From an uncultured virus (IMG/VR IMGVR_UViG_3300025072_000003) (Duplodnaviria > Heunggongvirae > Uroviricota > Caudoviricetes): DNA of 64,000 nucleotides. Below, piece after piece: positions 9,953 to 48,571 of this stretch. Below the pieces are notes generated by a model. The model ran no database searches. It was given only the letters and a program-made list of their open reading frames with translations, and was not told the origin of the DNA. The translations under genes and the position numbers were made by a program. Positions within the stretch are counted from its first letter, which is position 1. Each line of letters starts with the position of its first letter. The stretch lies in IMG/VR virus record IMGVR_UViG_3300025072_000003; one strand, given 5' to 3'.

Positions 9953-10126
9953 TTAAACTTCTGACACCTTTTTTAAATCTTTTTGTCGATGAACCATTGG
10001 CGACCCTTCCAACACGTAATAGGTATACCCATTTTGTATCCATCGGTCAGCAACAACGCCAGTGTATCCAGCTTTGATTTTGCCTCTGCCAGTGTGTTCA
10101 ACGGTTTCGCCAATTGCAAACTGCAT
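9953..10126 (-). CDS. small hypothetical protein, stop inside element
   Basis: Hand translation MQFAIGETVEHTGRG...KKVSEV*; GAGG RBS. Confidence 0.6.
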   Translation of the reverse strand: MQFAIGETVEHTGRGKIKAGYTGVVADRWIQNGYTYYVLEGSPMVHRQKDLKKVSEV

Positions 10127-10216
10127 GTTTTGCCTCTTAGGTAGGTGGTGGTTGCTTACAATACGCTATTGACCGAAACCGTACTATCTGACAATAATAA
10201 TTAAAAAAACCATATA

Positions 10217-10402
10217 CTAGAGGGGTAGCCTATCATAGTAGGAAACTAGTTGCCCAGAAGGGGTGAACATCTCAACAGTAAATTTGTGATTCTTCACGAA
10301 TCCACATGCGTGGATGCAAGCACTCTCCCACGTATTGAATAGCGCGACTACGGGGGACATGCGACCTATGTGGGTGGTTTTGATAATTGATACTTTATAC
10401 AT
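10217..10402 (-). CDS. small hypothetical protein (cassette)
   Basis: AGGA RBS; between elements. Confidence 0.65.
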   Translation of the reverse strand: MYKVSIIKTTHIGRMSPVVALFNTWESACIHACGFVKNHKFTVEMFTPSGQLVSYYDRLPL

Positions 10403-10475
10403 AGCGTTTTCCTTGTGAGGTGATTGGCTTACAATACGCTATTGACCGAAACCGTCCTATCTGACAATAATAATT

Positions 10476-10509
10476 AAAAAAAACGCCCCCCCGCGAGAGA
10501 GGGCGTTTT
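10476..10509 (-). terminator. Rho-independent terminator
   Basis: AAAACGCCC...GGGCG hairpin followed by a T-run on the - strand, just before element 10442. Confidence 0.65.
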
Positions 10510-11321
10510 AATTAAGCTGCTACGTCAACGTCAACGCTTCGGAATTGCGGGTACGCTTGCAGATACTTACGCGCTTGGCGTTTCGTCGTCTGGGTGCCGT
10601 GACTGTTGCACCACGCCTTAAAAGATGCGTGGTGAATCTGACTTCAACAAGTCAGCAGCGGTCAGTGGGCGAGTGGTAGGGGCTTTGGCCATGTAATTTA
10701 CTCCGAAGGAAAAAGGAAAGTGTTGCAATACGCTATTGATTGAAACTGTTCTATCTGACAACAATATTTAAAAAACCCACAACCAACAGGCTGGGTACAA
10801 TTTACCATGATAGAGAGTAAAAACGCCCAAGGTCAGGGCGTTTTAATTTTTATTTACATGAAAACCTTAACAGCCGTAATTGCTTTTAATAGCGTAACGA
10901 CTGCGACACGATAGCCTATTCCACACTTTGTTGAAATTTGTTTTCGGAAGTATCCCTCAAGGTGGCAAAGCATTTTGTATTCGTTCATCGGCTTCCCTCA
11001 GTTGGTGGTTGGCGGTTGTTACACTTGGCTATTGACTGAGAATTAAACTTCTGACAACTTTTTAGGGCGTTGCGTGGTAAGGGTTTAGAGCAACTCCATG
11101 CTAAAGCCAAAGTGACAGAACCCAGTTTCGTCGCTGAGAGCGTCAGCAACGTCCTCCACATCTTCTACGTCAACCGTCAATTCGGTTGGCAGGTCTATCA
11201 TTTCGCCGTCTGTATCCCATTTAATATCTGTACATTTAATTTTCATAGTTTGTGGTCCTCAGTAGAGAGAGTGATTGTCTTACAATAGGCTATTGACTGA
11301 GAATTGATTATCTGACAATAA

Positions 11322-11906
11322 TTAAATACTATTATCAACCTCTATTACTAGGTTGCGAAGTTCAAGCCCGCCATTGTTGATGTTTTTCCGTACCGCAGCC
11401 GATCCTTTAGCAACAGCAAGGGCAACAGCATTTACGGTCGCTGTAACAGATTCGGAATCTTCCTCCCATTCATCGCGATTCCACGAACACACTTCCCCCT
11501 CGTCGTCTACAATGGCGACAAACTCTCCCGTCCAAGCAAATACACCGGGGGAAAGTTCAACGCACTCATTGTAGTCCTTATAGTGGTCTGGTCGTTCTCC
11601 CGCTGCCTGTGCCTCCAATTTCGCCAGCTTCGCCTCTGCCTCTGCCAGCTTCGCCTCTGCCTTCTCACGTTCTAGTTCTCTCACGATAGCATTGTATCGA
11701 CCGTAGGCTTGATTGTACGCCTCTCGTGACGTTCCACTGCCCACCCTCATAAAGTTAGACTTTCGATCAACAGCACAAACTTCGGAAACAGTTTGGTAGC
11801 CAGCTTCGCCCCCGCACTTGAATCGAACTGGCGCATCAGCTTCCTCAAGGTATTCGTTTAGTTCCGCAACGCCTTCGCGTAAGTCTTTTACGGTGAATCG
11901 AGACAT
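11322..11906 (-). CDS. hypothetical protein (cassette)
   Basis: 194 aa; internal AEAKLA repeat; stop 3 nt from element. Confidence 0.8.
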   Translation of the reverse strand: MSRFTVKDLREGVAELNEYLEEADAPVRFKCGGEAGYQTVSEVCAVDRKSNFMRVGSGTSREAYNQAYGRYNAIVRELEREKAEAKLAEAEAKLAKLEAQAAGERPDHYKDYNECVELSPGVFAWTGEFVAIVDDEGEVCSWNRDEWEEDSESVTATVNAVALAVAKGSAAVRKNINNGGLELRNLVIEVDNSI

Positions 11907-12628
11907 TTTATTTTCTCTAGTGAGGTGGTTGTGTAAAATAAACAGGGGGCGAAGCGGTTCATCTCTTTGCCGCTTAGGGTATTCGTCAACTGCCAGCGGC
12001 AGTCTTCTCGTCCCATTTTCAACCCCTCGTTGTTAGGCTATTGACTGAGAATCAATTCTCTGACAACAATATTTAATTATTGCCTTCTAGCTGTCGAATT
12101 TGCCGTTCTGCGGCACTGGCGCTGCTTGCGTGCTTTCTTAGCACAGCCCTGGCTTCGTCTTTAGTCATGCCGCCCATGATGGTTGCGCCAACATCGGACA
12201 TTTTAAGCGTACTGCGAGCAATCTTAATTTGGTGCTTATCAAAAACATTCATTGTTTTTTCCTCAATAATGAGTTGAGTGATTGTCTTACATTAGGCTAT
12301 TGACTGAGAATCAACCCTCTGACAGACTAATTATAATCTTTCAGAGAATTACGGAATTGACTTCCGCGAGTACGTTGGCGCTTCGTTCGATTATCCATCT
12401 CCCCAGCACTCCCTCTACGTGGCTGGTGTCCCTTGCGCAATGGTTTGGCTTGAATTTCGATAGTGATAGTTTTCGATTTTCTGTTTGTCTTACCCATCGT
12501 GCTTGTCCTCAGTAGAGAGAGTTGATTGCCTTATACTATGGTATTGACTGAGAATCGAATATCTGACACACAAAATAAAAAACCTCGCTGGGCTAAGTAC
12601 CACCATAACCCAGCAAGGTCGAGAATGA

Positions 12629-12919
12629 CTAAGCGGCGGCAGCAACCTGAGTGCTACCCTCTGACATACCGTTAGCGGTCTGATTCGCCAGATACAGAGC
12701 GAAGCCAGAGTATGGCAACGGCTCACGAGCCAGCGCGTCAACGATTTCGAGCGTCAACTTTTTAATACCCAACTTTTGGGCTAGTTGGTGGATACCCGCA
12801 ACTTTGTCTTTGTGACATGCTGGGGTGACAACATTGGTGTGCCCCATTGCATACTGGGGTTTGAAGGGGATACCAACGGGCTTTGCCGTTGGTTTACGAT
12901 GGAGCGTTAATTTGCTCAT
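12629..12919 (-). CDS. hypothetical protein (cassette)
   Basis: Between elements; followed by a hairpin and T-run at ~12572-12620. Confidence 0.7.
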   Translation of the reverse strand: MSKLTLHRKPTAKPVGIPFKPQYAMGHTNVVTPACHKDKVAGIHQLAQKLGIKKLTLEIVDALAREPLPYSGFALYLANQTANGMSEGSTQVAAAA

Positions 12920-13103
12920 TTTCGCGTCTCTTTGGTTAGGTTTCGTTTAGTAACAATACGCTATTGACTGAGATATGATTTTCTGACAGCTATTTTACCA
13001 TTTCACAAGTCACCTCCTAAGCCTTAGATAGGGCTATATGGGACGTTCCCAAGATATAGCCGTGGATATTCAATATTTCAACGGAAACGCCTGTATCGCC
13101 CTC

Positions 13104-13355
13104 CTAGCCCCACTCAAACGCCTCACGCTCTTGGCACTCTAGCATTTGATCGCGGCGAAGGTCAGCCAGTTCCTCTTGTACGCCATCTTGCCATTGAGAA
13201 TCATCTTCATCATTCTCATGCGCCTCAAGAGTCTCAAGAGAAAATTGACGCCTAGCTCTAAAGAGGTATTCTTCGCAGCTTTCCCCATCATGCTGGGGTT
13301 CGCCAATAATTAGCGTGCAAGTCCCCTCGCATGTGCAATTCTTAATTTCCGTCAT
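13104..13355 (-). CDS. hypothetical protein (cassette)
   Basis: GAGG RBS downstream of element 13396. Confidence 0.65.
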   Translation of the reverse strand: MTEIKNCTCEGTCTLIIGEPQHDGESCEEYLFRARRQFSLETLEAHENDEDDSQWQDGVQEELADLRRDQMLECQEREAFEWG

Positions 13356-13422
13356 TGTCTCGCCTCTTAGGTTGGTGGTGGCTTACAATACGCTATTGAC
13401 TGAGATACGCCTATCTGACAAT

Positions 13423-13647
13423 TTAATTTTCAACTTCATCACAAAAGTTGGTTGCGCAATCCAAACTGACATCGGCGGTTAGTTGGGCAGCAATGCGGGC
13501 AATAACGTGGTCGCCAATATCACGCGCTCGTTGAATCTCATAAGTTCGCACATCTTTACGCATAGCTGCAATTGTTGCGCTGCCATCATACGACCATTTA
13601 ATATTATTGTAAATGTCGCAGATTCGTTCGTTGATTTCGCCTTGCAT
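13423..13647 (-). CDS. hypothetical protein (cassette)
   Basis: GAGGA RBS; stop 1 nt from element. Confidence 0.7.
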   Translation of the reverse strand: MQGEINERICDIYNNIKWSYDGSATIAAMRKDVRTYEIQRARDIGDHVIARIAAQLTADVSLDCATNFCDEVEN

Positions 13648-13721
13648 CGCGTTGTCCTCAGTTGGTGGTGGTTGGCTTACAATACGCTATTGACTGAGAT
13701 TTAATTATCTGACAACTAAGT

Positions 13722-14012
13722 TTAATAATTGTAGAGAAAGGTTTTCGTAAGTATTTCCGAATCTTCCTCTCGACTCTTTATCCCAAGGGTAACGCTTTTG
13801 CCATAGCCGGTGATGGTTTTTTTCTCCTCATTAATTGAGCAGAAGCCAGCGCCAACTACATTGCTGTAATCATTGCGAGTTTTTTGTTCTTCGTTCCACT
13901 TGGCAAATGGTTGCGCCATCTTAATGTGGTCGATCATTGGATTGAAAATAATGGCAACTGGGGGTCCGCCGTTATCTTCCACGATAATATACTTCGGATG
14001 GTCAAACATCAT
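13722..14012 (-). CDS. hypothetical phage protein (cassette)
   Basis: AGGA RBS; KYIIV...VVGAGFC...YGKSVTLGIKS. Confidence 0.8.
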   Translation of the reverse strand: MMFDHPKYIIVEDNGGPPVAIIFNPMIDHIKMAQPFAKWNEEQKTRNDYSNVVGAGFCSINEEKKTITGYGKSVTLGIKSREEDSEILTKTFLYNY

Positions 14013-14081
14013 GTTTTCCTAGTGGGTGGCGATTGTCTTACAATACGCTATTGACTGAGATTTAATTATCTGACAACAAAA

Positions 14082-14531
14082 TCACGCAGCTTGCGATTTT
14101 CCGTTGCACTTGGTTAATCGCCAAGTTGAGCAACCAAAGAACTTGCCAAATTTGCCCTTGCGTTCTTTGGTGGGTGCGCCACAAGCAGGGCAAGCAGGAC
14201 CAACATTTTCACGCCAGTTGTCGATACGTTTCTGCAAGTTAGTTGCCCACGTAGGAACGCGATGCACTCTCTTGTCGCCACTACAACACATAATGCCATC
14301 ATCGGTGCGAATGAATAGGCTAACGCGAATGGCGTCTTTACCAGCAGGGCGGGAATGACCATCGGGGTTGATTGCAGAGTAAACCCGCATTGATAGCTTG
14401 CGACCATCAAAATCAACTACCTTGCCCCAAACTAATTCGTTGCAATTGTCAAGGGACATAGGACGGAAACCTTGAGCTTCCAAAAAATCGCCCATCTCTT
14501 GCTTCGATACGGGGTAGAAGTTTTTTGACAT
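14082..14531 (-). CDS. protein with C-terminal topoisomerase-type C4 zinc ribbon
   Basis: CPACGAPTKERKGKFGKFFGCSTW..C matches the TopA zinc-ribbon pattern. Confidence 0.75.
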   Translation of the reverse strand: MSKNFYPVSKQEMGDFLEAQGFRPMSLDNCNELVWGKVVDFDGRKLSMRVYSAINPDGHSRPAGKDAIRVSLFIRTDDGIMCCSGDKRVHRVPTWATNLQKRIDNWRENVGPACPACGAPTKERKGKFGKFFGCSTWRLTKCNGKSQAA

Positions 14532-14605
14532 TGTTTTGTCCTCAGGTGGTTGCGACTGTCTTACAATACGCTATTGACCGAGATCGAACTATCTGACAAC
14601 TATTT

Positions 14606-15007
14606 TTACCATTGTCGTTTATTTTCCGTCATTCGTTGCCAATAATCCTCGACAACATAACCAATGTCGGGGTTGGCGGTTGTTCGTTCTTTCAACTCTT
14701 GTACGAACAGAAACCGATGCCTGATACCCTTGTCGAACCCACCGGGGCATTGTGTTGGCACTTTACCAACTTTCATAACCAATATGTAACAGTACATGCC
14801 TTTACAGCTTCCCGTTGCCATGAGAGTGTAACCCTCTGGCACCTTGAAATCGGCACCTAAGTCCCACTTATAGGTTTCAGGTGTCACCGTATACAACCGA
14901 CGAAATTGTGTTCGCCCATTGTAACGATATTGCAGGCACGACCCAGTATTCTCGAATCCGTTGCAGTCAACGCCGATCAGGTCAGTATCTTGCTCAATAG
15001 TAGTCAT
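14606..15007 (-). CDS. hypothetical protein flanked by perfect 73-bp direct repeats
   Basis: Repeats at 14533-14605 and 15009-15081. Confidence 0.8.
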   Translation of the reverse strand: MTTIEQDTDLIGVDCNGFENTGSCLQYRYNGRTQFRRLYTVTPETYKWDLGADFKVPEGYTLMATGSCKGMYCYILVMKVGKVPTQCPGGFDKGIRHRFLFVQELKERTTANPDIGYVVEDYWQRMTENKRQW

Positions 15008-15075
15008 CGTTTTGTCCTCAGGTGGTTGCGACTGTCTTACAATACGCTATTGACCGAGATCGAACTATCTGACAA

Positions 15076-15480
15076 CTATTTATTTAATTCCCACCTAAAT
15101 CGTCGCTGAATGTTATGGGTGACAGTGATTCGCCAAGCCTCCCCAAGATACTTGTCGGTGAAATCAATCCACTCGCCTAGCTGATTGGTACAAGCAATTT
15201 CGGGCAGGTTTAATGCTTTGAATAGTTGATTCAATCCACGGGCACCAGTGCCACCATAGCCCCAAGAGAAGCCACCAAAGCGAACAGTACCCTTGTCGCC
15301 ACGCACAATCACGCCAACGTGGTTGATTCCGTTTCTACCCTTATACAGGTAGCCACGCACGTACATTAGGTTGCCAATCTTGCTTAGGTGCTTGAGGGAT
15401 TTTAGTGATCGGTTGGTGCTTCCACCGCCACGGCGAATCTTGCCATCGTAACTGTCTTTTTCTACAAATTGATAAGCCAT
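15076..15480 (-). CDS. hypothetical protein (cassette)
   Basis: FSWGYGGTG motif; TAG flush with element. Confidence 0.8.
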   Translation of the reverse strand: MAYQFVEKDSYDGKIRRGGGSTNRSLKSLKHLSKIGNLMYVRGYLYKGRNGINHVGVIVRGDKGTVRFGGFSWGYGGTGARGLNQLFKALNLPEIACTNQLGEWIDFTDKYLGEAWRITVTHNIQRRFRWELNK

Positions 15481-15556
15481 TGTTTTTTCCTCAGTTGAGT
15501 GGTGGTTGCTTTACAATACGTTATTGACTGAGATTTAATTATCTGACACACAAAAT

Positions 15557-15589
15557 AAAAAAACCGCCCCCCACTTCAAGGGGCGGTTT
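15557..15589 (-). terminator. Rho-independent terminator
   Basis: CCGCCCC/GGGGCGG stem plus T-run on the - strand, just before element 15524. Confidence 0.75.
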
Positions 15590-15619
15590 AATTTTACTCA
15601 ATCGTCAAATTAAATCGAC

Positions 15620-15916
15620 TTAGGCGGCTTCGACCAAACCGATTGCAACATGCGTAGGGCGACCACGCTTGCCCGTAGGCGACCCGCCAGTGAACTCACG
15701 CTTCACAATGCTCACTTGCGACTCGAAAGGATTAAACTTAGCCTTGTCGTTGTTCGCAACATAGGTGCGAGCTTTGGCAACAATTTCATCGGTCGAGATC
15801 GTGTTAAGATCCCAGTCATTGTCAGCAAAGTATTGCATAGCACGTCGAAGCAATGCGCTCATGTTGTACTTTTTCTTCGGCTTTGCGGGGGACTTCTTTG
15901 TGGACTTCTTTGCCAT
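15620..15916 (-). CDS. small basic putative DNA-binding protein
   Basis: Lys-rich N-terminus MAKKSTKKSPAKPKKK and AT-hook-like KRGRP; start re-assigned. Confidence 0.65.
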   Translation of the reverse strand: MAKKSTKKSPAKPKKKYNMSALLRRAMQYFADNDWDLNTISTDEIVAKARTYVANNDKAKFNPFESQVSIVKREFTGGSPTGKRGRPTHVAIGLVEAA

Positions 15917-16122
15917 GGTAAACGTCTCTTTCGTCAAGGGAACAGGGTATTGACCAGATTCGGTCGTTTGTTTTGACCTCACATGGGTCATTGTCTTACA
16001 GTACGCTATTGACCGAGATTTAATTATCTGACAGACAATATAAAGTTTTTCTTATCCTTTTTTTATCGTGCTTGCCAATATGACAAGTGCTAAGAAACAG
16101 GCTAGATTGTATTCTAGTGGTG

Positions 16123-16512
16123 TCATTCCGACACCCAAAGGGTAACTGTTTCTTCATCAACTCGCAATGAGTGTTTGAATTGATTGAAATCACAAACCCC
16201 TTGAATCATACTTTTGCACTCGATTGCAAATTGTTCGTTGCTTCTGCAATCCCACACAAACGATGTTGTTTTTGGTCCATTCTCGATCAGGTTATCAGCG
16301 CCAATGGTATCCATGTAGGCATATAGCGCTTGCTTTGTTTCAAACGTGCCATCATGCCCAATCATCAGCACGATTTTTGTTCTCGTAAAGGTTTTATATT
16401 CCCCCCCATTTTGGCAGGGAGAATCTACCTCTGCAAAATCTTCGTCAAAATCTTCGTCAAAGTCAAAATCACCAAATTCACTGAAGTATTCATCTAGTTC
16501 TTCTTCGTCCAT
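16123..16512 (-). CDS. hypothetical protein with acidic N-terminus
   Basis: GAGGA RBS; D/E/F-rich first 30 aa. Confidence 0.75.
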   Translation of the reverse strand: MDEEELDEYFSEFGDFDFDEDFDEDFAEVDSPCQNGGEYKTFTRTKIVLMIGHDGTFETKQALYAYMDTIGADNLIENGPKTTSFVWDCRSNEQFAIECKSMIQGVCDFNQFKHSLRVDEETVTLWVSE

Positions 16513-16564
16513 TGATTCCTCGTTGGTGTTTGTTGCTTACAATAGGCTATTGACTGAGAATTGA

Positions 16565-16981
16565 TTATCTGACAACTTCTCTTTTAATTTTGTCCAAGTC
16601 AAGATAAACGATATAGCAAGATAATATTTTTCGTTTATCGGTTTTCCTTGGTGCTGTATCGACAACCGTTTTCCCTCTTGCGTCCAACACAACAACATGC
16701 CCTTGCACTTGAATGATGTACCCGCAGGTGATTGCATCGGATAGTTTAGCGAGTGTCGCCCTAGCCCCGCCAACGCTCATTCCTTTGACGTTAGAGCCTC
16801 TTGAGCGTACAGTGTATTTCTTACGAACAGCGTACACAACGTCTTTGATGGTATGCAGGTATCTCGTTTGATGCTGACAACCAAAGTATCTAACAGCAGC
16901 TAGGGCGCAAATATTTTTGTTTGTATTGTGAGGGTTATTGCTTTTGGCACGAGATGTTTTACGGCAGGTGGCTTGAGTCAT
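16565..16981 (-). CDS. hypothetical protein, stop inside element
   Basis: Ends ...VVR* within element 16550. Confidence 0.8.
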   Translation of the reverse strand: MTQATCRKTSRAKSNNPHNTNKNICALAAVRYFGCQHQTRYLHTIKDVVYAVRKKYTVRSRGSNVKGMSVGGARATLAKLSDAITCGYIIQVQGHVVVLDARGKTVVDTAPRKTDKRKILSCYIVYLDLDKIKREVVR

Positions 16982-17035
16982 TGGTTTTGCTCGCTAGTTG
17001 GTGGTTGTTGCTTACAATACGCTATTGACTGAGAT

Positions 17036-17290
17036 TTAATTATCTGACAATCTATTTTTGACATAATGACACATGCCAATTGTTTTAATATCTTCGCCAG
17101 TGAATGTGAACCACTCGCCCCCGCCTAGAAGTCCCTCATTCATTGCGTGGGGGTGTACTCCCTTTAGTTCGCAAAATGCGTCCCAATTGCCGCAAGTTAT
17201 GATTGATTGCGCGGTTAGCTGCACTCTCATCGTATTCATTGTTTTCTCTTTCAACAGTAGGTGGAAACAGGGTTCGCAGAACGGCGACAC
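17036..17290 (-). CDS. hypothetical protein, stop inside element
   Basis: Ends LSDN*; true start probably the internal MNTMRV. Confidence 0.6.
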   Translation of the reverse strand: MSPFCEPCFHLLLKEKTMNTMRVQLTAQSIITCGNWDAFCELKGVHPHAMNEGLLGGGEWFTFTGEDIKTIGMCHYVKNRLSDN

Positions 17291-18170: not shown

Positions 18171-18214
18171 GGGGCGTTTTAATTTAACTCTTACAGTACG
18201 CTATTGACTGAAAA

Positions 18215-18562: not shown

Positions 18563-18655
18563 GGTGGCGACCTAACCACTCCATCTACCCCACTCATCGC
18601 AGGGCGACTCGGAGAAGATGTCCACCACCTTGCTCATTGTGTTATTGCGTGAGAA

Positions 18656-19758: not shown

Positions 19759-19759
19759 C

Positions 19760-40236: not shown

Positions 40237-40289
40237 TTAATTCATTATGTTTGGCTATTGATCGAGAATTGATTATCTGACAACTATCT

Positions 40290-41026: not shown

Positions 41027-41077
41027 TGTGTTTCCTCTGTTGGGGTTAGTTGGTTATGATTGTAGGTTGATTGAGAA

Positions 41078-41407
41078 TTAGTTTTCTGACAACTGTTTTT
41101 CCCAAAAAGCAAAACCGCCGTCTGTGTAAGGGTCAGCACTTACTTCATCCGTACTAACAACTACTCCATTCTCGAACATAAGATCACGAACAGCCTCTTC
41201 TAGCTCAGTTGCATCAGCAAACCTTGGCGTATTCCCTTCCCATTCCCCTGATTTCTGGGAGTCATTTTGCAATGTAACTCGATATGCCCACCCTTCTGGT
41301 TCGCATTGATTATCCCAGTAAATTTCTGCTTTTGTTGGCAAATCCTTTTTGTCAAGTGATTGGAATGTTAAATTAACTATGTTCAACGCTTTTAGGCATG
41401 GGTTCAT
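41078..41407 (-). CDS. hypothetical protein, stop inside element
   Basis: Ends LSEN*. Confidence 0.7.
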   Translation of the reverse strand: MNPCLKALNIVNLTFQSLDKKDLPTKAEIYWDNQCEPEGWAYRVTLQNDSQKSGEWEGNTPRFADATELEEAVRDLMFENGVVVSTDEVSADPYTDGGFAFWEKQLSEN

Positions 41408-41844
41408 TTATTTTTCCATTCGTGCGAAAGAAGTCTCTGTACGTCACGGAAAGAGTGACCATCACAAATCAATCTGCCGATCTGTTCAACATATTTTGAA
41501 ACCTCCTCTTGAGGAAGTGGTTCATAAGGTCTAGGAACAGAAGACCTCAACTCTTCGTCGCTATACTTGCCACTGTCTCGCTCGCTACGAGACAATGTTT
41601 CACTAAGGTAAGACGTTTGCTCTCGCTCATAAAAGCCAACATCGCCTTCACCATCGCAGGAATCAATGCAATAATGTTTCCCATCGACAATTAAGCCTTT
41701 ACAGCCACAACTCCTACTTGCTGGTTTTTCTGAATCGTAAAATTTGAAATCTCCCATTCCTGGTGTGCATTCACTTATTTTGCACCCAAAATCCATCCTC
41801 AAATAAATTCCCATTCCTTGAATTTCACTAAGAGCATTCGACAA
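41404..41844 (-). CDS. hypothetical protein
   Basis: Coupled to 41078..41407. Confidence 0.7.
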   Translation of the reverse strand: MSNALSEIQGMGIYLRMDFGCKISECTPGMGDFKFYDSEKPASRSCGCKGLIVDGKHYCIDSCDGEGDVGFYEREQTSYLSETLSRSERDSGKYSDEELRSSVPRPYEPLPQEEVSKYVEQIGRLICDGHSFRDVQRLLSHEWKNK

Positions 41845-42080
41845 ACTATAACAGAAACAGCTTCTTTCTTTCCTTTTGAACCAAAGAAGCTTCCAAGCAA
41901 TGTTCCAGCTACTCGCCTTCCCTCATACTCTTCGTCCATAGCAAAAGCTTGCCAAGGAAAATCTTCAGTGTTGGTGTTTTTGAACTTTCTGATATATCCA
42001 ATAACGGAATCGCCATACTTGACAATCGAAGCGGTTTCTCTTGAAGAACTAGGAACTTTCTCAACTGTAATCATTGCCAT
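41799..42080 (-). CDS. hypothetical protein
   Basis: GGAGA RBS after element 42114. Confidence 0.7.
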   Translation of the reverse strand: MAMITVEKVPSSSRETASIVKYGDSVIGYIRKFKNTNTEDFPWQAFAMDEEYEGRRVAGTLLGSFFGSKGKKEAVSVIVCRMLLVKFKEWEFI

Positions 42081-42124
42081 ATCTCCTGGGAATGCTTTGG
42101 TTATGATTGTATGTTGATTGAGAA

Positions 42125-43126
42125 TTAGTTTTCTGACAAATATTTTTCATCAATCTCTGGTGGATCTGCAATATAAATGCTGTTTTTGAAATAACTTCTA
42201 ACAGTTTGCACTTTTCCGTATGGAGTAAAACACAATTCGCCTTTATAGTCGAACACACGATGAATCCCAACCTTGTCAACATCCAAAAAGTTTCCGTTGA
42301 CAATCTCTTTGTCGAACTTATCATAGACAGGGGTGCGTCCACTGAACTGCCCAACTAAATTTGTCCAATCTTGAATTTCCGTGACAATTGTGCCATCTTC
42401 AACATCATGAGATTTCCCGCCAAACAATCTTGTCATTCTCGCGTCGTATTTGCTGATCGTTTTTTCATACACAGCGCCTTCTGCATTTTTCTGCTTTCCA
42501 TAAACCCAAAGAGTGTAACACTCAATGGAGAGAGGCAAGGCTCCTACGACCTTAGCCGATTCCTGCAACGCTTCTTCTAAACTGTTTAAATATAATATTC
42601 TTGTGCTTGGTCTTGAATAACCAACCTCTTCTTCTATTTCTTTTTTTAATTCTTCATCAAAATTCTTAATGAATTCGTCCAATTCTTTTTGTGGACCATC
42701 CCAAATCTCTTCTGGGATTTCTTTGCTTTCGCCTATTCTTTCCGCAACCCTTTCGTACTCTTTCTCGTTTTCAAAAAGGTGGTTCCACTGTCTTTTAGTT
42801 AAATAGAATGTGCATCGTTTGTCATCTTCATCCATAGCATCAATCACAACACTGTACCTTGTGTCAGCACTAGGATCGAAATCCGTCATTGCTTCAAGTT
42901 TTTGTGGACCAAAACCCTGGTTTGGAGCATGTTCAGATTGATCATCGTTCAACTTGGCATTGTCCGGCGCATGTTGGTAGCATCGTTCATGCCATGCTTT
43001 CACGCTGTTGTGATCTTCCGATCCACCATAACCATCATATTCTTGTACGTTTCCGTTCAATCTTACAAGTTCTCTCTCGCACAATTCGTGACCACAACCC
43101 TTGCAGATGTATGAAGACATTCCCAT
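42125..43126 (-). CDS. hypothetical protein, 333 aa, stop inside element
   Basis: AGGA RBS; N-terminal CKGC...HERC; ends LSEN*. Confidence 0.85.
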   Translation of the reverse strand: MGMSSYICKGCGHELCERELVRLNGNVQEYDGYGGSEDHNSVKAWHERCYQHAPDNAKLNDDQSEHAPNQGFGPQKLEAMTDFDPSADTRYSVVIDAMDEDDKRCTFYLTKRQWNHLFENEKEYERVAERIGESKEIPEEIWDGPQKELDEFIKNFDEELKKEIEEEVGYSRPSTRILYLNSLEEALQESAKVVGALPLSIECYTLWVYGKQKNAEGAVYEKTISKYDARMTRLFGGKSHDVEDGTIVTEIQDWTNLVGQFSGRTPVYDKFDKEIVNGNFLDVDKVGIHRVFDYKGELCFTPYGKVQTVRSYFKNSIYIADPPEIDEKYLSEN

Positions 43127-43144
43127 TTTATGTTTCCTTAATTA

Positions 43145-43486
43145 TTAAAGGTAAGCCGCGCCATAGCTTGACATTCGACCAACACCATTAGATTCATCAA
43201 ATACGTTTCCTCTTGCATGTTTCGCTGGAGCTTTCCACGATGCAGCCTTAAAAATGTCGCCTTGCTTAAAAGATCCCAAGTTTTTGTTTTTGCCATCTGC
43301 CAGTGCAATAAAGCAATACACAGAACTTCCAAAACTGCCGACACGCATGCCGATTCTCAAAAACTTTCTCCCCCCTGCACGACTTAACTTTGGGACTCCA
43401 ATTGATGGGTAATTTTTTTCGTGATGTTCATCAATCAATTCTTGACACAACTCCATGAATTTGTCAATAGCTGGTTCAATTTCCAT
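43145..43486 (-). CDS. conserved-looking phage hypothetical protein
   Basis: SVYCFI...GDIFKAASWKAPAKHARGNVF motif; GGAGA RBS. Confidence 0.8.
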   Translation of the reverse strand: MEIEPAIDKFMELCQELIDEHHEKNYPSIGVPKLSRAGGRKFLRIGMRVGSFGSSVYCFIALADGKNKNLGSFKQGDIFKAASWKAPAKHARGNVFDESNGVGRMSSYGAAYL

Positions 43487-43512
43487 TTTTCAAGTCTCCT
43501 GATTGTGTGGGG

Positions 43513-43764
43513 TTATCCAGATATGCTGATCACGCCATGATTAGTATTGATCTCTGGCAAATACTCTTCGCCAAATGAATCTGCGAAGTCTGCCTCAAAA
43601 TCTTCGCATGTATCCCAGGCAAATCCATCATCGCCCATCGAAGTTGTGGTAAAGCATGGTCCACCCTTTGACGAACCAGTAGCAATCTCTCTTGCTTCCT
43701 TTGCATCATTGCCAGTTAGATACAGCACTTCAATGGGTTTCATTCTAATTGTAGTAATCATCAT
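43513..43764 (-). CDS. hypothetical protein
   Basis: GGAGA RBS after element 43799. Confidence 0.7.
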   Translation of the reverse strand: MMITTIRMKPIEVLYLTGNDAKEAREIATGSSKGGPCFTTTSMGDDGFAWDTCEDFEADFADSFGEEYLPEINTNHGVISISG

Positions 43765-44323
43765 TTGTCTCCTGTTTTCTGTTGGCTATAACAGGAGGTT
43801 GATTGAGAATTGATTATCTGACAAAGATTATGAATTATAATGCAGAATCAAAAGAATTAACGTCCCAGCAATGCATAGTGCATATTCAATACGATTACCA
43901 TGTGGGGGGGGACATAGCGATCTCGATTCTTTCTAGTTCCTGGGAATTCTTGACTTTCGTAATTTGTTGTCAGTCCAATTTGATTTAGCTTATCATTTTG
44001 AACATTCTTCCACACATTGCCAGTATTTGTTGGCAAATCTTCTGGTGTCCAAGTTGGAGGATCATTTTGTTTAGGCTCCCAATCTTTCAAAGATTGAAGA
44101 CAACCATCTACAAATGTACTGCAACTATTAATTGCAAAAAGCACTCCAAGCAACAACGCATTAAACATAAGTTTCTCCTAATTATTATTATTTAACTCGA
44201 AACACATCCATATTCTCGTTTGAACCACATATAAGCCACTCTTCATCAACCGAAGTTATGCCATCAAAGTGTCCGTTTTCATTGTACACAAACTCATATG
44301 TCTAACGAGCAAAACCATATTTT

Positions 44324-44623
44324 CTATCCTTTGTCCATATCTTGACCACAACTTCGGCATGTGCAAGTGGATGTTTTACCACACACACAAACTGGATCTG
44401 GCTGTTCTTTATTCTTCGCAATAAATGGTTTCATTTTTTCAGGAATATCAATTGCAACCGTCAGCGTAATGCATTTATGACACACACAGCACACCAGTGT
44501 GGTTCTACCAGTGCCAAGACAATCGGTTACGTCTTCGCCCTCAAACTCCAACCACGAATTACAATGTGGGCAATGCTTAGTTGCCGTTGGACAATCTTTA
44601 ATTACTCTCATTTGATTCCTCAA
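44324..44623 (-). CDS. Cys-rich Zn-finger protein
   Basis: CPHC, CCVC, CVC...CTCRSC. Confidence 0.65.
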   Translation of the reverse strand: MRNQMRVIKDCPTATKHCPHCNSWLEFEGEDVTDCLGTGRTTLVCCVCHKCITLTVAIDIPEKMKPFIAKNKEQPDPVCVCGKTSTCTCRSCGQDMDKG

Positions 44624-44820
44624 TTTCTATTTCATTTACTGGCAACCATCCAAACCAATCAGTCTTTACAGAACGACAAAGCAAACTAAGGGTTCCCATG
44701 CAAGTTGGTCTGCCTTCCTCTTTCACAATAAATTCTGGTCCGTGTTGCCGAACTCTTTCTTTCGTTCTCTTGGTTGACTTTCCGCCTCCCAAGACTTTAA
44801 TGTTAAAAGTTTTCATAGTT

Positions 44821-45054
44821 TTATTCTGGAATTGGTCTAATGCCTTGCGACCATTCTTCATCGTTAGCCCAATCTTCCACATGATCAACAGCATCCGTGG
44901 CAATGCCATGTGCTTCGATCCATTCTTTGAAATCTTCTGCTAATTTCTTGCGGGCGGAGAACATGTCATCAACCCGTACCTGCATCCATTCAACTGGCTT
45001 GTCTTCAACAGTCTTCTTGCCTTTTGGCAAAAGTTTTGGCTTTTTCTTCAACAT
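44821..45054 (-). CDS. hypothetical protein
   Basis: Downstream of tRNA-Arg, in the same unit. Confidence 0.6.
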   Translation of the reverse strand: MLKKKPKLLPKGKKTVEDKPVEWMQVRVDDMFSARKKLAEDFKEWIEAHGIATDAVDHVEDWANDEEWSQGIRPIPE

Positions 45055-45085
45055 AATTTTCTACTAAGCCTATATCTTTGGTAAG

Positions 45086-45159
45086 CGCCCCTGTCAGGAC
45101 TCGAACCTGAAACCTATTGATTAGAAGTCAATTGCTCTTTCCAATTGAGCTACAGGGGC
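45086..45159 (-). tRNA. tRNA-Arg (TCT)
   Basis: GCCCCTG/CAGGGGC acceptor; D arm GCTC-AATTGGAAA-GAGC; anticodon ATTGA-CTTCTAA-TCAAT; T arm TCAGG-TTCGAGT-CCTGA. Confidence 0.95.
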
Positions 45160-45231
45160 AAATTAGAGGGGAAGCCCCTCAAGTTGTTATGTTTGTAGGT
45201 TGATTGAGAATTGATTATCTGACAAACAATC

Positions 45232-46620
45232 TTACAAATATCTTGATAAACTCAACCCTTCTGCTGCGCACCATTTATTGATAGCTCTGTATTCAAATGG
45301 CATAGGCATTGCGTTGCATTGACCACGAGCCTCAATAATTGTGCGAGACTTAACCTCTATCTGTATTGTAACCATCTTTTTAGTCGCCAATGGATGCCCA
45401 ATACTGAGTGAGTAAATGGCATTTGCTCCTGAACTACACGAACCAGAATAACTCCCCACACAATGTCGCAAGGATTTCCCTTCTGCCATCAATTCTTTGG
45501 TGGAAAGCAATTCTTTAATTACACATTGCTTTTCATCATTTTTGCCTTCCAAAAAGTCTATGCCTCGGATGCCACAACTTGACCAATTCAAATCTCCTGT
45601 ACGTTTAATTTTGGCTTGTCGTCCAAGTTCAACATGCCAATCTTCAACTCTTTGAAGCAATGTATCGACAGTTCTGCCCTTCATGCAGAAATTTGGCTGT
45701 TCTGCTCGTTGATTTAATATGTAATCAACTATTGGACCATAATGGATTGTGTCCAACATTGGATTCGCTATGAAGAAGCGTATCACGGTTGCCCAAAAGT
45801 CTTCATTTACCTCACCTTGAAACAGTCCAACGCGAGTAGCCAACAGACCTCTTGCGCACCGATCATTGCCATCTAACCCAAGGACTTGTGCATATCTCAA
45901 AGCGCCACTTATGGTTAAATCATTTGGTGATTCCAAAAATAAGTGAGCCATTCTCTTTGTTAATTTTATTGGAAGACGACTTTGCTTACGAATGTTCTCG
46001 CCCTGCGAAAGATTTACGAACCACTCTTTGTGAATAGAAGTGTTTTTGTCGTGATCATACTCAAACCACGCAGAATCCATAAATGATGGAATTTCGTACT
46101 TTGATAGAAGATGCCTAACCAAAGATCCAAACTGACGGTCTACATTTTTTGATGCACACTTCCAACCCTTTGGTGGATTTACCCACATCCAATGCCATTC
46201 AGATATGGCAAACAACGCATCTACATAATTATTTCTACGAAAATTATTATTTCTGTGATCGCTTGGATGACGATTCACATCTAAAAGCTTAGTTTTTTCA
46301 ACAGCAAGCAACAACTCTAGAAATGCCTGCCTTCGATCTTTGTGCGGATCTATGTGCTTATACAGAGAATGCTGAGCCACCCTGCCCAAAAGAACCTTCA
46401 ATTTAGTTGATAGACCACATCCACCGAATTCGCCATTGAAAGCATTTTCTATTGTTGCACAAATTCCACGAGATTTTCTACGTTTGGCAACTTTGTCTGC
46501 GTTAATGGCGTCATAAAATTGACGCTGCTTTCTGGCAACTTTGAGTCGTCGAATATCAGCCTTTCTCTCAATGAGGCTTTCTTTTTTCTTGTCAACCTTC
46601 TTTTTCGACATCTCCAACAC
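45232..46620 (-). CDS. PcfJ-like domain protein
   Basis: C-terminal ELMAEGKSLRHCVGSY...IYSL...TIQI...IIEARGQCN is the PcfJ signature. Confidence 0.8.
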   Translation of the reverse strand: MLEMSKKKVDKKKESLIERKADIRRLKVARKQRQFYDAINADKVAKRRKSRGICATIENAFNGEFGGCGLSTKLKVLLGRVAQHSLYKHIDPHKDRRQAFLELLLAVEKTKLLDVNRHPSDHRNNNFRRNNYVDALFAISEWHWMWVNPPKGWKCASKNVDRQFGSLVRHLLSKYEIPSFMDSAWFEYDHDKNTSIHKEWFVNLSQGENIRKQSRLPIKLTKRMAHLFLESPNDLTISGALRYAQVLGLDGNDRCARGLLATRVGLFQGEVNEDFWATVIRFFIANPMLDTIHYGPIVDYILNQRAEQPNFCMKGRTVDTLLQRVEDWHVELGRQAKIKRTGDLNWSSCGIRGIDFLEGKNDEKQCVIKELLSTKELMAEGKSLRHCVGSYSGSCSSGANAIYSLSIGHPLATKKMVTIQIEVKSRTIIEARGQCNAMPMPFEYRAINKWCAAEGLSLSRYL

Positions 46621-46969
46621 CTCGATTCAAAAACTCTTCACGTATTTTGTTCATAAACGGATCTTCTGAATTGTCGTCCAAAAACTTTCGAAAATTGCCA
46701 AGGTACTCACGGCAAGCTTTTGCAACATCAGCGTTTGAATCTGCTTGTTTGTACGCATCATTAAATTTCATCCACGCCAGCGTTAGAGAGAAATCGACTT
46801 CGTTCAGCACCTTTTGTCTTGCTTCAAGTGCTTCAATCTTATCGACACATAGTTCTGCAATGCCAATTGTGCTTTGATCCTCCAAGCCTGCAATTTCATC
46901 TGCCAACTCTAAAATTCGATCTTGTCGAATCTCTGCCAATATCAGTTCGCCAAATTCTTTACTTACCAT
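46592..46969 (-). CDS. hypothetical protein
   Basis: 125 aa helical ORF upstream of the PcfJ-like gene. Confidence 0.7.
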   Translation of the reverse strand: MVSKEFGELILAEIRQDRILELADEIAGLEDQSTIGIAELCVDKIEALEARQKVLNEVDFSLTLAWMKFNDAYKQADSNADVAKACREYLGNFRKFLDDNSEDPFMNKIREEFLNRGVGDVEKEG

Positions 46970-47040
46970 TTTTGACTTTCTAATTAAAATTAAACCGCCC
47001 CTCCCTACTCCACTGTTTCGGGAGGGGCGACCTCCGTGAA

Positions 47041-47334
47041 TTACACGATAGGGGCGTTTTTATTTTTCAAGCTATGCTCAAGAATGGATTCGTATGCATC
47101 AAAAACATTGTCACTGTCTTTAATTACTTCGACTCCGCACAATGATCTAAAGCCACTGACTTCAAAATCTACAATGCCATTTGTAACATCATTTGTATTG
47201 GCAATTGCATACCCAAGAGGTTCCAAAACTTCATTCAGTTCTGCAACATCACCATCTGCAAGTGCCTTTTTCAATTTAGGGCTTGCATTGTGTGTTAGGT
47301 TGTTAAATCGAATCGTCCGTAAATCCCAAACCAT
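47041..47334 (-). CDS. hypothetical protein
   Basis: AGGA RBS; followed by a GC hairpin at ~46995-47030. Confidence 0.7.
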   Translation of the reverse strand: MVWDLRTIRFNNLTHNASPKLKKALADGDVAELNEVLEPLGYAIANTNDVTNGIVDFEVSGFRSLCGVEVIKDSDNVFDAYESILEHSLKNKNAPIV

Positions 47335-47589
47335 CTTTTATATTCCTTTTGAAAACTTTATTTAACTCATTACTTTTCTGTTGAAACTATCCTTGAATCT
47401 ATCAATTGCATCAACCAATGCAAGAGTCGCCAAGGCTTGTGATCCTATGGCTGCAACTTTCGCCCTGGCAATCGCTTGGTCGGTATGATCTGTGTGGCGT
47501 GTATCTGTATGTTTCCCTGCCTCTTCAGCCAAGGCTTGTGATCTATTGTAGTTTTTATAACCTGTCATTTCAATTCCTATAAAGACTTT

Positions 47590-47979
47590 CTATGCCACTA
47601 ATTCATGGCATGCTTGCGACAATTCCCCAAACTCTGGGGAGTTAATTCCAACGAATGACCTCAAAAAGTAAACAACAGCATCGGGCGTATAATTTTTACC
47701 ATTACTCATACCATGCTTCACAACATCCCCAGCCCATCGCTGCACACCCTCATAGCTAACATCCGTCAACTTTACTGGAGGACTGCCAGAAGGCGTAATA
47801 ATTGGTGCAAGACCATTCCTGTAGAGCGTCTTTTGTTCTGTTTCTTTAGGCTTATTGACCTGAATAGGTTTAGTCACTTCAACTTTAGCCTTTTTTGCAA
47901 AAACATATCCACATTCACACTTTGCTCGCACATGAATCAATTTGCCACAATTACATTTTCTGTATCCCTGTCCAGCCAT
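47590..47979 (-). CDS. hypothetical protein with N-terminal Zn-ribbon
   Basis: CNCG...CECG; AGGA RBS after element 48012. Confidence 0.75.
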   Translation of the reverse strand: MAGQGYRKCNCGKLIHVRAKCECGYVFAKKAKVEVTKPIQVNKPKETEQKTLYRNGLAPIITPSGSPPVKLTDVSYEGVQRWAGDVVKHGMSNGKNYTPDAVVYFLRSFVGINSPEFGELSQACHELVA

Positions 47980-48037
47980 TGTTTTTGTTTCCTTTGTGTT
48001 ATGCTTGTAGGTTGCCCGAGATTGAACTTTCTGACAA

Positions 48038-48571
48038 CTATTTCACAACTTCCAATTCATCAACTTTGCAATCATAACTTTGAGAACCAAAATGAACGTA
48101 ATAACAGTCTTCGTCTCCCTTTGCCTCTCCGCTTGCAAAGTCTTCGCTTCTTCCTCTCACAATTCCTTCTGAACCAGCAGGGACCACTTCGCATCCATCA
48201 TCAATTCCATTCTCGGCATCGTCGCTTTTCAGTTCAACCAACGCTCGCACTTTGTCGCCTGCCTTAATTGGTTGGCACTCATATCCTTCAATTGAAATTT
48301 GGATATTTTTAACATCCCCATACCTCTCTTCCACAATTTTTTTCAATTCCTCTTTTGTGGGATATTCGCCCTCTACATAGATCAATCCAACATAAGCATA
48401 AACCGATACAACAGATAGATCTACCTTAGGTCCAGCAGGGTATGGAGCATTATAAATCACCCCAATTTCATCACACTTAATTGCCGTGTTCAATTCCTTG
48501 AAAGATTCTTGATGATTGTCAAACTCATGACAATCACCGGCATCAACGATTTTTGGTAGTTTAAATTTCAT
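48038..48571 (-). CDS. hypothetical protein
   Basis: C-terminal SH3-like GDKVRA...EGIV...YYVHF; TAG flush with element. Confidence 0.75.
   Translation of the reverse strand: MKFKLPKIVDAGDCHEFDNHQESFKELNTAIKCDEIGVIYNAPYPAGPKVDLSVVSVYAYVGLIYVEGEYPTKEELKKIVEERYGDVKNIQISIEGYECQPIKAGDKVRALVELKSDDAENGIDDGCEVVPAGSEGIVRGRSEDFASGEAKGDEDCYYVHFGSQSYDCKVDELEVVK

What the first reader, a model, noticed from the sequence alone, without database searches (positions are those of the whole stretch)
9953..48571. Cassette ORFs end exactly at, or borrow their stop codon from, the element
Seen: ten ORFs have their stop codon directly abutting TTGTCAGA (ends at 15076, 21275, 25005, 25996, 26509, 27213, 27975, 30127, 32011, 48038). 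Thirteen more run into the element and stop inside it, giving unrelated proteins the same C-termini: LSEV (18215, 18656, 25426, 29363), VSEV (9953), LSDN (17036), LSEL (28970), LSEN (41078, 42125) and VR/VRN (16565, 17772, 19082, 20080). With the common spacer types the element supplies a stop in at least one of these two frames, plus the flush TAG. Established: integron cassette ORFs often place their stop codon in the edge of attC. Inference: genes were captured with a junction at the element edge and almost no 3' UTR. That is expected of precise cassette assembly, and not required if the element were only a promoter.
Basis: partly seen in the sequence, partly recalled or inferred. Interest (0 to 1): 0.75.

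Follow-up and report, generated by a model that had tools for sequence, protein, structure and literature searches.

The report
Phage gene ends abut repeated promoter module
In a large uncultured marine phage, 69 copies of one regulatory module sit before small unknown genes, and the genes end at or just inside its edge mainly because the genome is tightly packed, not because of integron-like capture.

Summary
Of 69 copies of the minus-strand element, 12 have the upstream stop flush with TTGTCAGA, 14 have it inside the element (+11 to +15) and 22 have it 1-12 nt before.

The element is the core of a roughly 55-nt module: AT-rich flank, octamer, 8-nt spacer, 23-nt block. Its similarity runs on through the leader and Shine-Dalgarno to the next ATG. 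It does not fold. No integrase lies in the window. One copy sits 26 nt before a tRNA. It is best read as a phage-specific promoter plus 5' UTR.

Ordinary junctions in the window are just as tight: median -1 nt, with 18 ATGA overlaps. Stops fall where the flank tolerates them. Read-ins occur only in frames with an early element stop.

Homologs of one LSEN protein show a complete native C-terminus plus four element-coded residues, so it is not truncated.

One metagenomic variant carries an unrelated ORF between two conserved modules. The closest known kind is the PeSL cassette of T4-type phages, but this module lacks a sigma-70 consensus.

Integron-like capture is not supported.

The parts
7853..50539 (-). 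Array of 69 copies of the module, each placed before an ORF or a tRNA
   Evidence: nhmmer profile; information profile
7853..32719 (-). Type A sub-array: 54 modules ending ..TCAATAGCGTATTGTAAG, mostly one small ORF per module, GC 44.4%
34672..50539 (-). Type B sub-array: 15 modules ending ..TCAACMTACAATCATAAC, often several ORFs per module
13676..13730 (-). Example module near consensus: AT-rich flank with TAA-ACT-TAG, TTGTCAGA, spacer taattaaa, 24-nt block
   Evidence: the upstream ORF 13722-14012 ends at d=-6 with a second in-frame stop flush
15076..15480 (-). Flush-stop ORF (TAG abuts the octamer). One of 12; the others are 21275-21661, 25005-25373, 25996-26472, 26509-27066, 27213-27899, 27975-28346, 30127-30858, 32011-32319, 36095-36274, 48038-48571 and 49173-49343
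29363..29878 (-). Read-in ORF ending LSEV at +15. One of 10 at +15; the others are 9953-10126, 17036-17290, 18215-18562, 18656-19024, 25426-25875, 28970-29305, 29900-30067, 41078-41407 and 42125-43126
16565..16981 (-). Read-in ORF ending VR at +11. One of 4 in the +2 frame; the others are 19082-19339 (+11), 17772-18170 and 20080-20358 (+14, VRN)
41078..41407 (-). 109-aa protein of a small-protein family: conserved DGG.A.W, then EKQ, then the element-coded LSEN
12073..12252 (-). 59-aa cassette ORF that an unrelated 120-aa ORF replaces in the variant contig L009
14529..14605 (-). Module plus leader, 76 of 77 nt identical to 15005-15081, although the flanking ORFs are unrelated
45085..45159 (-). 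tRNA-Arg(TCT) starting 26 nt after position +40 of module 45225, with no ribosome-binding site
20966..21039 (-). tRNA-Glu(TTC) inside the cassette of module 21274
15561..15589 (-). Strong intrinsic-terminator-like hairpin whose T run ends about 10 nt before module 15549. Similar ones lie at 10480-10509 and 22549-22580

Best explanation
The element is the core of a repeated regulatory module. Its parts, in order, are an AT-rich flank (-15..-1), the octamer TTGTCAGA, an 8-nt AT-rich spacer, a 23-nt conserved block, a C/A-rich leader, a Shine-Dalgarno and the start codon. The module gives most units in a 43-kb region of small unknown genes of a large uncultured marine phage their own transcription and translation start.

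I infer that it is a promoter read by a phage-specific factor or polymerase, because it is not a sigma-70 consensus.

Genes end at or in its left edge for three reasons:
1. The genome is packed to the limit everywhere.
2. A stop codon fits the module only at a few flank positions (0, -3 to -6), or in the spacer at +9..+15.
3. ORFs that lack their own stop survive only in the two frames that the spacer closes within five codons.

The LSEV, LSEN and VR tails are therefore short, probably neutral extensions, plausibly created by loss of a flush stop.

Because about 80-90 nt are shared by all copies, the modules also serve as substrates for homologous recombination. This swaps, deletes or duplicates the ORFs between them, as described for PeSL cassettes of T4-type phages.

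Shown: the anatomy, the spacing statistics, one ORF replacement, and the intact C-terminus of one family. Inferred: promoter activity, stop-loss history and recombination mechanism.
For: Anatomy:
- Conservation spans -15..+40 and C is nearly excluded from the flank.
- Pairwise similarity between copies runs from about -12 to the next ATG.

Transcription role:
- Strong terminator-like hairpins end about 10 nt before modules 15549, 10467 and 22532. This leaves no room for a promoter upstream of the octamer.
- tRNA-Arg begins 26 nt after module 45225 with no RBS.
- The same module, about 90% alike in its core, precedes genes three times in 104 kb of two other viral contigs that share no other DNA similarity with the window.

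Compaction:
- The 65 junctions without a module have a median gap of -1 nt, and 18 are 4-nt overlaps.
- 41 of 65 have 10 nt or less, against 48 of 69 module junctions within -12..+15.

Constraint on stop placement:
- In the 21 flanks not abutted by an ORF the consensus is TTTTTAAWTWTKG.
- A stop costs least there at d=-5, -12, -6, 0 and -3, and most at -1, -2 and -7..-11. In those costly positions only 3 of 34 own stops lie.

Read-ins:
- All 14 stop by +15. None uses the +29/+39 stops or the open frame. The chance of this if frames were random is 8e-7.

Native ends:
- 20 of the 33 aligned homologs (of 46 found) of the 109-aa LSEN protein end 2-4 residues after the conserved W. The window protein has W+EKQ followed by LSEN, and its last pre-octamer codon is CAG.
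- PHROG or Pfam matches of flush or near-flush ORFs reach the end of their profiles (25005-25373, 22041-22484, 38313-38804, 13722-14012).

Exchange:
- L009 has an ORF replacement between modules.
- Adjacent modules are more alike than random pairs: 13.5 against 16.2 mismatches of 52, reached by 0 of 5000 permutations. Meanwhile the ORFs are unrelated.

Precedent: PeSL description and model (PMC2839356, sections 13 and 16 read).
Against: - No transcript data exist. No listed sequencing run is RNA, so promoter activity and the start site are unproven.
- The module is not sigma-70-like: the scan flags 2 of 69 copies. The factor that would read it is unknown and is not in the window.
- A residual phase bias is not fully explained by flank constraints. 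27 of 31 own stops at tolerated positions are in phase with the octamer, against 4 of 6 expected (p=0.009).
- 10 of 14 stops at -3/-6 are followed by a second in-frame stop flush with the octamer.
- A flush stop triplet is present in 24 of 48 abutted flanks but in only 2 of 21 free flanks (p=0.0013). This hints at a common ancestral flush junction rather than independent compaction.
- Recombination evidence rests on one 1,011-nt contig. Its diverged tract ends inside the next ORF, not at a module.
- The short-read contig joints are compatible with assembly artefacts at a repeat longer than the assembler's word.
Confidence: 0.6

Rival explanations
1. Integron-like capture. The element is an attC-like recombination site, and ORFs were captured by a site-specific recombinase with the junction at the element edge.
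For: - 12 stops are flush and many stops are in phase with the octamer.
- The ORFs are unrelated to each other.
- One ORF replacement lies between elements.
Against: - No integrase or recombinase family appears among 122 ORFs of the window or 121.
- The module has no secondary structure: mean z is -0.19 and the core is +0.57.
- Similarity extends to the next gene's ATG, so the element is 5' regulatory DNA.
- One copy directly precedes a tRNA.
- The octamer does not fit the integron core GTTRRRY (by inspection; the motif is recalled).
- In L009 the left breakpoint is after +40 and the right one is near -9. They are not at one fixed point.
Confidence: 0.04
2. The module is itself a small mobile element, of miniature-insertion or homing type. 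It inserts at gene ends and brings its own stop codons, promoter and leader, so the flush in-phase stops mark its left terminus.
For: - The left edge of similarity is sharp, at -12..+2.
- Flush stop triplets are enriched at abutted junctions: 24 of 48 against 2 of 21.
- Two 77-nt copies at 14599 and 15075 are near-identical (76 of 77) and flanked by unrelated ORFs.
- An HNH endonuclease gene lies at 61865-62443.
Against: - No terminal inverted repeats or fold are present.
- No target-site duplication was seen in the aligned copies (by eye).
- All 69 copies have one orientation and sit only before genes with a correctly spaced RBS.
- The core is conserved in another phage where it is rare: 3 copies in 104 kb. 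That fits a regulatory site better than a selfish repeat.
Confidence: 0.1
3. The conserved block acts in RNA, as a processing site, a stabiliser or a translation signal in a long polycistronic transcript. It is not a promoter.
For: - Conservation continues into the leader.
- There is no sigma-70 consensus.
- All copies are co-oriented.
Against: - No RNA structure is predicted.
- The 5-bp CAATA/TATTG pairing of type A is absent in type B, and its variants are not compensated (by eye).
- One copy precedes a tRNA without an RBS.
- Terminators directly upstream of several copies would cut off a long transcript.
Confidence: 0.12
4. The module is only a promoter and plays no special part in gene exchange. 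The junction pattern is compaction alone, and the L009 difference is ordinary homologous recombination between diverged strains.
For: - Spacing equals that of ordinary junctions.
- The diverged tract in L009 ends inside the next ORF.
- Only one variant was found among the 9 metagenome contigs with the motif.
Against: - The replaced ORFs share no similarity, yet they sit between conserved modules.
- Neighbouring modules are homogenised while the ORFs are unrelated.
Confidence: 0.12

Closest known systems
PeSL (promoter-early stem-loop) regulatory cassettes of T4-type phages (Arbiol et al. 2010, PMC2839356; Comeau et al. 2014, PMC4122927)
   Same: - It is a repeated intergenic composite of roughly 100 nt. 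It begins with the upstream gene's stop codon in an AT-rich tract and ends with the Shine-Dalgarno and start codon of the next gene.
- There are about 50 copies per genome, mostly before ORFans in hyperplastic regions.
- Recombination between copies deletes, inserts or replaces the ORFs.
(PMC2839356 sections 13 and 16 read; PMC4122927 abstract only.)
   Different: - There is no sigma-70 -35/-10 consensus: 2 of 69 copies are flagged.
- The core is much more uniform, with 8 + 23 nearly invariant bases.
- The module itself has no stem-loop. Terminator hairpins lie before only some copies: 4 were seen by the scan in 7.8-47.8 kb.
- The phage has no close DNA match among phage records and the one ORF tested has no close relative in IMG/VR contigs. 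Whether it is T4-type cannot be told from the window.
- Mini-circles were not tested.
Integron gene cassettes with attC sites
   Same: - It is an array of unrelated small ORFs, each with one copy of a repeated site.
- ORF stops lie at or in the site.
   Different: - The site is 5' regulatory DNA of the next gene, not a 3' hairpin.
- It has no fold.
- There is no integrase in the window.
- Each unit has its own RBS and probable promoter.
Phage-polymerase promoters of T7-like phages (23-bp conserved promoters, some overlapping the end of the upstream gene; recalled, not checked in a paper here)
   Same: - A roughly 23-nt highly conserved block lies directly before a short leader.
- An A/T-rich stretch (TGTAA / CATAA) ends the block.
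- Upstream ORFs run into the promoter region.
   Different: - An extra invariant octamer lies 8 nt upstream.
- No single-subunit polymerase gene is in the window.
- The copy number is far higher.

Membership tests
Integron / attC cassette array | Adjacent intI tyrosine recombinase | tested here: not met
   0 of 122 window ORFs match an integrase or recombinase family in Pfam, and 0 of 121 in PHROGs. The rest of the genome (at least 263 kb) could not be seen.
Integron / attC cassette array | Site is an imperfect inverted repeat that folds as a hairpin | tested here: not met
   For the 69 modules (-15..+45) the mean z is -0.19, and 4% have z<-2. For the core the mean z is +0.57.
Integron / attC cassette array | Site lies 3' of a promoterless ORF and belongs to that ORF's cassette | tested here: not met
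   Similarity between copies extends rightwards to the next ATG, including the RBS. One copy lies 26 nt before a tRNA.
PeSL regulatory cassette | Composite intergenic motif: upstream stop in an AT-rich tract, promoter, Shine-Dalgarno, start codon | tested here: met
   definition from PMC2839356 figure 2 legend.
PeSL regulatory cassette | Sigma-70 consensus -35 and -10 | tested here: not met
   Only modules 31020 and 30126 pass the scan (TTGTCA-18-AATAGT). None passes in 7.8-27.8 kb.
PeSL regulatory cassette | Stem-loop terminator or attenuator component | tested here: inconclusive
   Strong hairpin plus T run lies directly before modules 15549, 10467 and 22532, and a weaker one before 10761. 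The module itself is unstructured. 19% of the -60..+10 stretches have z<-2.
PeSL regulatory cassette | Concentrated before ORFans in a variable region | tested here: met
   7 of 73 array ORFs have any PHROG hit. The two tested LSEV proteins have only self or 99% variants among 5.8 billion proteins.
PeSL regulatory cassette | Differences between related genomes are bounded by the motif | tested here: inconclusive
   There is one case. In L009 the ORF between two modules is replaced, but the diverged tract continues about 160 nt into the next ORF. The contig joints are unreliable.
PeSL regulatory cassette | Host phage is a T4-type myovirus | not testable with these tools
   No structural or replication core genes lie in the window. 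No genome is held.

The most novel reading that the evidence does not exclude
The module is a universal stop-promoter-leader adaptor of a recombination-based gene-cassette platform in a jumbo phage. Its left edge would be a defined junction that carries in-phase stop codons (TAA at -9..-7, TAG at -3..-1, TAA at +13..+15). Any ORF joined there is then terminated within five codons. ORFans would be gained, lost and reshuffled through module-to-module exchange, possibly via mini-circles, under a promoter type not yet described.

The phase bias, the tandem in-frame stops and the flush-stop enrichment would be traces of that common junction.
Probability: 0.2. Interest if true: 0.6.

Novelty: new variant of a known kind. 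Interest (0 to 1): 0.35.

Why it matters
The specific observation, stops at or inside the element, is mostly an ordinary result of extreme compaction. Stop codons can sit only where a conserved regulatory module tolerates them. It should not be read as evidence for an integron-like system.

The array itself is worth recording. It has 69 near-identical non-sigma-70 modules in 43 kb of a phage of at least 263 kb, most placed before a database orphan. It extends the PeSL idea of regulatory cassettes as recombination hot spots beyond sigma-70 promoters and cultured T4-type phages.

It also gives a clean sequence handle for two tasks. One is finding the transcription factor or polymerase that reads the module. 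The other is following ORFan turnover in marine metagenomes.

Tried and rejected
- Near-identity DNA search of two 12-kb stretches against 50,697 phage records: no match.
- No whole genome is held for the window.
- Relatives of the helicase 22596-24281 in IMG/VR: none. In phage records only about 30% identity.
- The 333-aa protein has no match in phage records.
- Five IMG/VR loci encode distant homologs of the 333-aa protein (L017-L021). None has the module, and the frequent words there are coding repeats or short unrelated motifs.
With P0050 it found no relative.
- Motif scan of bacterial and archaeal genomes: 4 single hits. My own arithmetic expects about 4 by chance in 596 Gb, so there is no host clue.
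- Sequencing runs: no RNA holder is listed.
- Logan contigs of four DNA runs break at the modules. Most joints have sides under 40 nt, or an overlap equal to the word size, and were set aside. The one long joint has sides of 233 and 267 nt and skips 14533-15008 between the two near-identical 77-nt modules. It may be a real cassette deletion or a graph artefact.
- Literature search for the motif strings: 2,952 papers hold one of the 8-10-mers, and none of the 15 listed is relevant. I therefore found no description of this motif in that search.
- Earlier findings of this scan: nothing for this genome or sequence.
- Hairpin idea (CAATA-GCG-TATTG, like N4 early promoters, recalled): rejected. Type B lacks it and the type A variants are uncompensated.
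- Paralogy as the source of shared junctions: rejected. Only 6 weak pairs appear among 163 ORFs, and none are neighbours in the array.

Full report
**What is there**

The octamer TTGTCAGA occurs 63 times in the window, 61 of them on the minus strand, against 3.24 expected. Aligning its surroundings shows that it is part of a much longer repeat. A profile built from 58 copies finds 69 full copies (E<1e-4). All are on the minus strand, with octamer starts between 50531 and 7891.

Three exact octamers (25611, 49455, 56291) lack the rest and are chance or coding occurrences. Eleven full copies begin with C, G or A instead of T.

The information profile shows these parts:
- an AT-rich flank at -15..-1, from which C is almost excluded; T at -3 occurs in 51 of 69 copies
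- invariant bases 2-8
- an AT-rich 8-nt spacer
- a strongly conserved block at 17-39

Pairwise similarity between copies starts at about -12..+2. In many pairs it continues to +65..+78, which is the start codon of the next ORF. The repeated unit is therefore the whole intergenic region: flank, octamer, spacer, block, C/A-rich leader, GGAG/GAGG and ATG.

Two sub-types exist. Type A has 54 copies between 7.9 and 32.7 kb. Type B has 15 copies between 34.7 and 50.5 kb.

**The observation**

I measure d as the base after the stop codon minus the first base of the octamer. The upstream ORF ends as follows (plus the ORF before module 9096):

| d | copies |
|---|---|
| 0 | 12 |
| +15 | 10 |
| +11 | 2 |
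| +14 | 2 |
| -1 | 3 |
| -3 | 5 |
| -4 | 2 |
| -5 | 2 |
| -6 | 9 |
| -12 | 1 |
| -18 to -114 | 17 |
| no ORF of 43 aa or more | 4 |

I add flush 49173-49343 and 36095-36274, and read-in 29900-30067.

The element closes the octamer's own frame by +15 in 37 of 69 copies and the +2 frame by +14 in 37 of 69. At least one of these two frames is closed in 61 of 69. The remaining frame is never closed before +34.

Seven of ten read-in ORFs exist letter for letter in the public protein collection, so other gene callers made the same calls. They lie on contigs of up to 263,030 nt.

**What the element is**

It does not fold. For -15..+45 the mean z-score is -0.19, and for the core it is +0.57.

The window holds no integrase or recombinase among 122 ORFs (PHROGs).

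Strong terminator-like hairpins end about 10 nt before modules 15549, 10467 and 22532. Any promoter for the next gene must therefore lie in the module.

tRNA-Arg starts 26 nt after position +40 of module 45225 without a ribosome-binding site. tRNA-Glu lies in the cassette of module 21274. This points to a role in transcription, not translation.

The same module precedes genes three times in 104 kb of two other viral contigs that share no other DNA similarity with the window. That fits a conserved recognition site.

The module is not a sigma-70 consensus: the scan flags 2 of 69 copies. Two candidate readings remain inference only:
- TTGTCA plus a poor -10 at 24-30
- a -10-like [T/A]AT[T/C][G/A]T at 32-37, with A33 in 61 of 69 and T37 in 59 of 69, and no -35

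**Is the spacing special?**

Ordinary same-strand junctions without a module (65) have a median gap of -1 nt. Eighteen are 4-nt overlaps and 41 of 65 have 10 nt or less. This is statistically the same as the 48 of 69 module junctions with stops in -12..+15 (p=0.47). The phage leaves no untranslated DNA anywhere.

Where exactly the stop sits follows the module's own constraints. In the 21 flanks that no ORF abuts, the consensus is TTTTTAAWTWTKG. A stop codon is cheap there at d=-5, -12, -6, 0 and -3. It is costly at -1, -2 and -7..-11, where only 3 of 34 own stops are found.

ORFs without their own stop all end at the first element stop by +15. None reads on to +29/+39 or uses the open frame. 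The chance of this if frames were random is 8e-7.

Far junctions have frames 6:5:6, so the phase bias is local.

**What is not fully explained**

- 37 of 48 near stops are in phase with the octamer (p=7e-10 against one third).
- After allowing only tolerated positions, 27 of 31 are still in phase against 4 of 6 expected (p=0.009).
- Ten of 14 stops at -3/-6 are followed by a second in-frame stop flush with the octamer.
- A flush stop triplet is present in 24 of 48 abutted flanks against 2 of 21 free flanks (p=0.0013).
- In 7 of 10 read-ins at +15, the codon at -3..-1 is one base away from a stop (p=0.01, confounded by composition).

Together these suggest that a flush in-phase stop was the common earlier state. 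Stops at -3/-6 would then be later gains in the AT-rich flank, and the +15 tails would be stop losses. This is inference.

**Homolog test**

The 109-aa protein 41078-41407 (...FAFWEKQLSEN) has 46 homolog clusters. I aligned 33 of them. I left out two giant repeat proteins and eleven whose match stops early or lies inside a longer protein.

Twenty of the 33 end 2-4 residues after the conserved W, and none ends LSEN. The window protein has W+EKQ and then LSEN. Its native end is therefore intact and flush with the octamer, and the element adds four residues.

The 333-aa protein 42125-43126 has 36 homologs, on contigs of up to 602 kb. Only its first 225 or so residues are conserved, so its end is uninformative. 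None of the 15 aligned homologs ends LSEN.

The 171-aa and 149-aa LSEV proteins have only themselves or 99% variants of equal length.

Family matches of four flush or near-flush ORFs run to the end of their profiles.

**Exchange**

The cassette ORFs are unrelated to each other. Adjacent modules, however, are more alike than random pairs: 13.5 against 16.2 mismatches of 52, reached by 0 of 5000 permutations. Modules 14599 and 15075 are 76 of 77 nt identical.

Most metagenome contigs with the motif are identical pieces of this phage. One contig, L009, is a variant:
- It is identical through the ORF 12327-12497 and module 12325 up to +40.
- It then carries an unrelated 120-aa ORF in place of the 59-aa ORF 12073-12252.
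- It regains similarity at -9 of module 12066.
- It stays about 81% alike for the first 160 nt or so of the next ORF, and is identical thereafter.

So an ORF was replaced between two modules, and one recombination endpoint lies in a module, but the other endpoint lies inside a gene.

Contigs of four other DNA runs break at modules. Their joints are mostly too short to trust. One 500-nt contig skips exactly the cassette between the two near-identical modules, but it could be an assembly artefact.

**Comparison with known systems**

The closest known kind is the PeSL cassette of T4-type phages. It is a roughly 100-nt composite that starts with the upstream stop codon in an AT-rich tract and ends with the SD and start codon. 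There are about 50 per genome, mostly before ORFans. Recombination between copies shuffles genes and forms mini-circles (PMC2839356, abstract and sections 13 and 16 read; PMC4122927, abstract).

This array shares the anatomy, the context and, with one example, the exchange. It differs in four ways:
- it lacks the sigma-70 consensus
- it has no stem-loop within the motif
- its core is far more uniform
- its phage has no close cultured relative

It fails every tested defining feature of integrons.

**Verdict**

The integron-like inference is not supported. The cassette idea survives only in the PeSL sense.

I rate it a new variant of a known kind, with interest about 0.35. The open points are the identity of the promoter and the residual phase bias.

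Noticed in passing
21048-21230 (-): Between module 21274 and tRNA-Glu lies about 180 nt with a T-loop-like GGTTCGATTCC and a ...CCTAGCCA end. Neither ARAGORN nor Rfam calls it. It may be a degenerate or unusual tRNA-like RNA.
   Followed up: partly
2242-2508 (+) and 50599-50850 (-): These are two paralogous small ORFs (43% identity over 88 aa) in opposite orientation on either side of the array. The second lies just upstream of the first module.
   Followed up: no
7900-32700 versus the rest: The type A part of the array has GC 44.4%, against 39.7% (32.7-50.5 kb), 37.9% (50.5-64 kb) and 40.3% (1-7.8 kb).
   Followed up: no
e.g. 10169-10198, 10442-10471, 11293-11322, 36773-36802, 38284-38313 (+): Read on the opposite strand, the module looks like a sigma-70-type promoter: TTGAC[CT], 18 nt, then AATAAT or AATTAT from the flank. 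This would give antisense transcription into the upstream gene, or it may be a coincidence.
   Followed up: no
leaders after modules 18229, 25440, 27974, 29377, 20093: A shared leader (..TTAAATTAAAACGCCCCTTTGGAGAG..) recurs at non-adjacent cassettes with unrelated ORFs.
   Followed up: no
11934-12024 (-): The leader after module 12066 carries about 90 nt that the variant contig L009 lacks.
   Followed up: partly
55629-56441 (-): A Thg1-like tRNA-His guanylyltransferase gene (PHROG E=1.6e-77) lies in the same phage as the two tRNA genes.
   Followed up: no
42125-43126 (-): This 333-aa protein has an N-terminal CKGCGHE zinc-ribbon-like motif. It belongs to a family found on contigs of 234-602 kb. 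The family's C-terminal third is not conserved.
   Followed up: partly
L019 7100-7900 and 15200-15450: A distant relative's locus carries long 21-nt-period coding repeats (GGCGACGT...).
   Followed up: no
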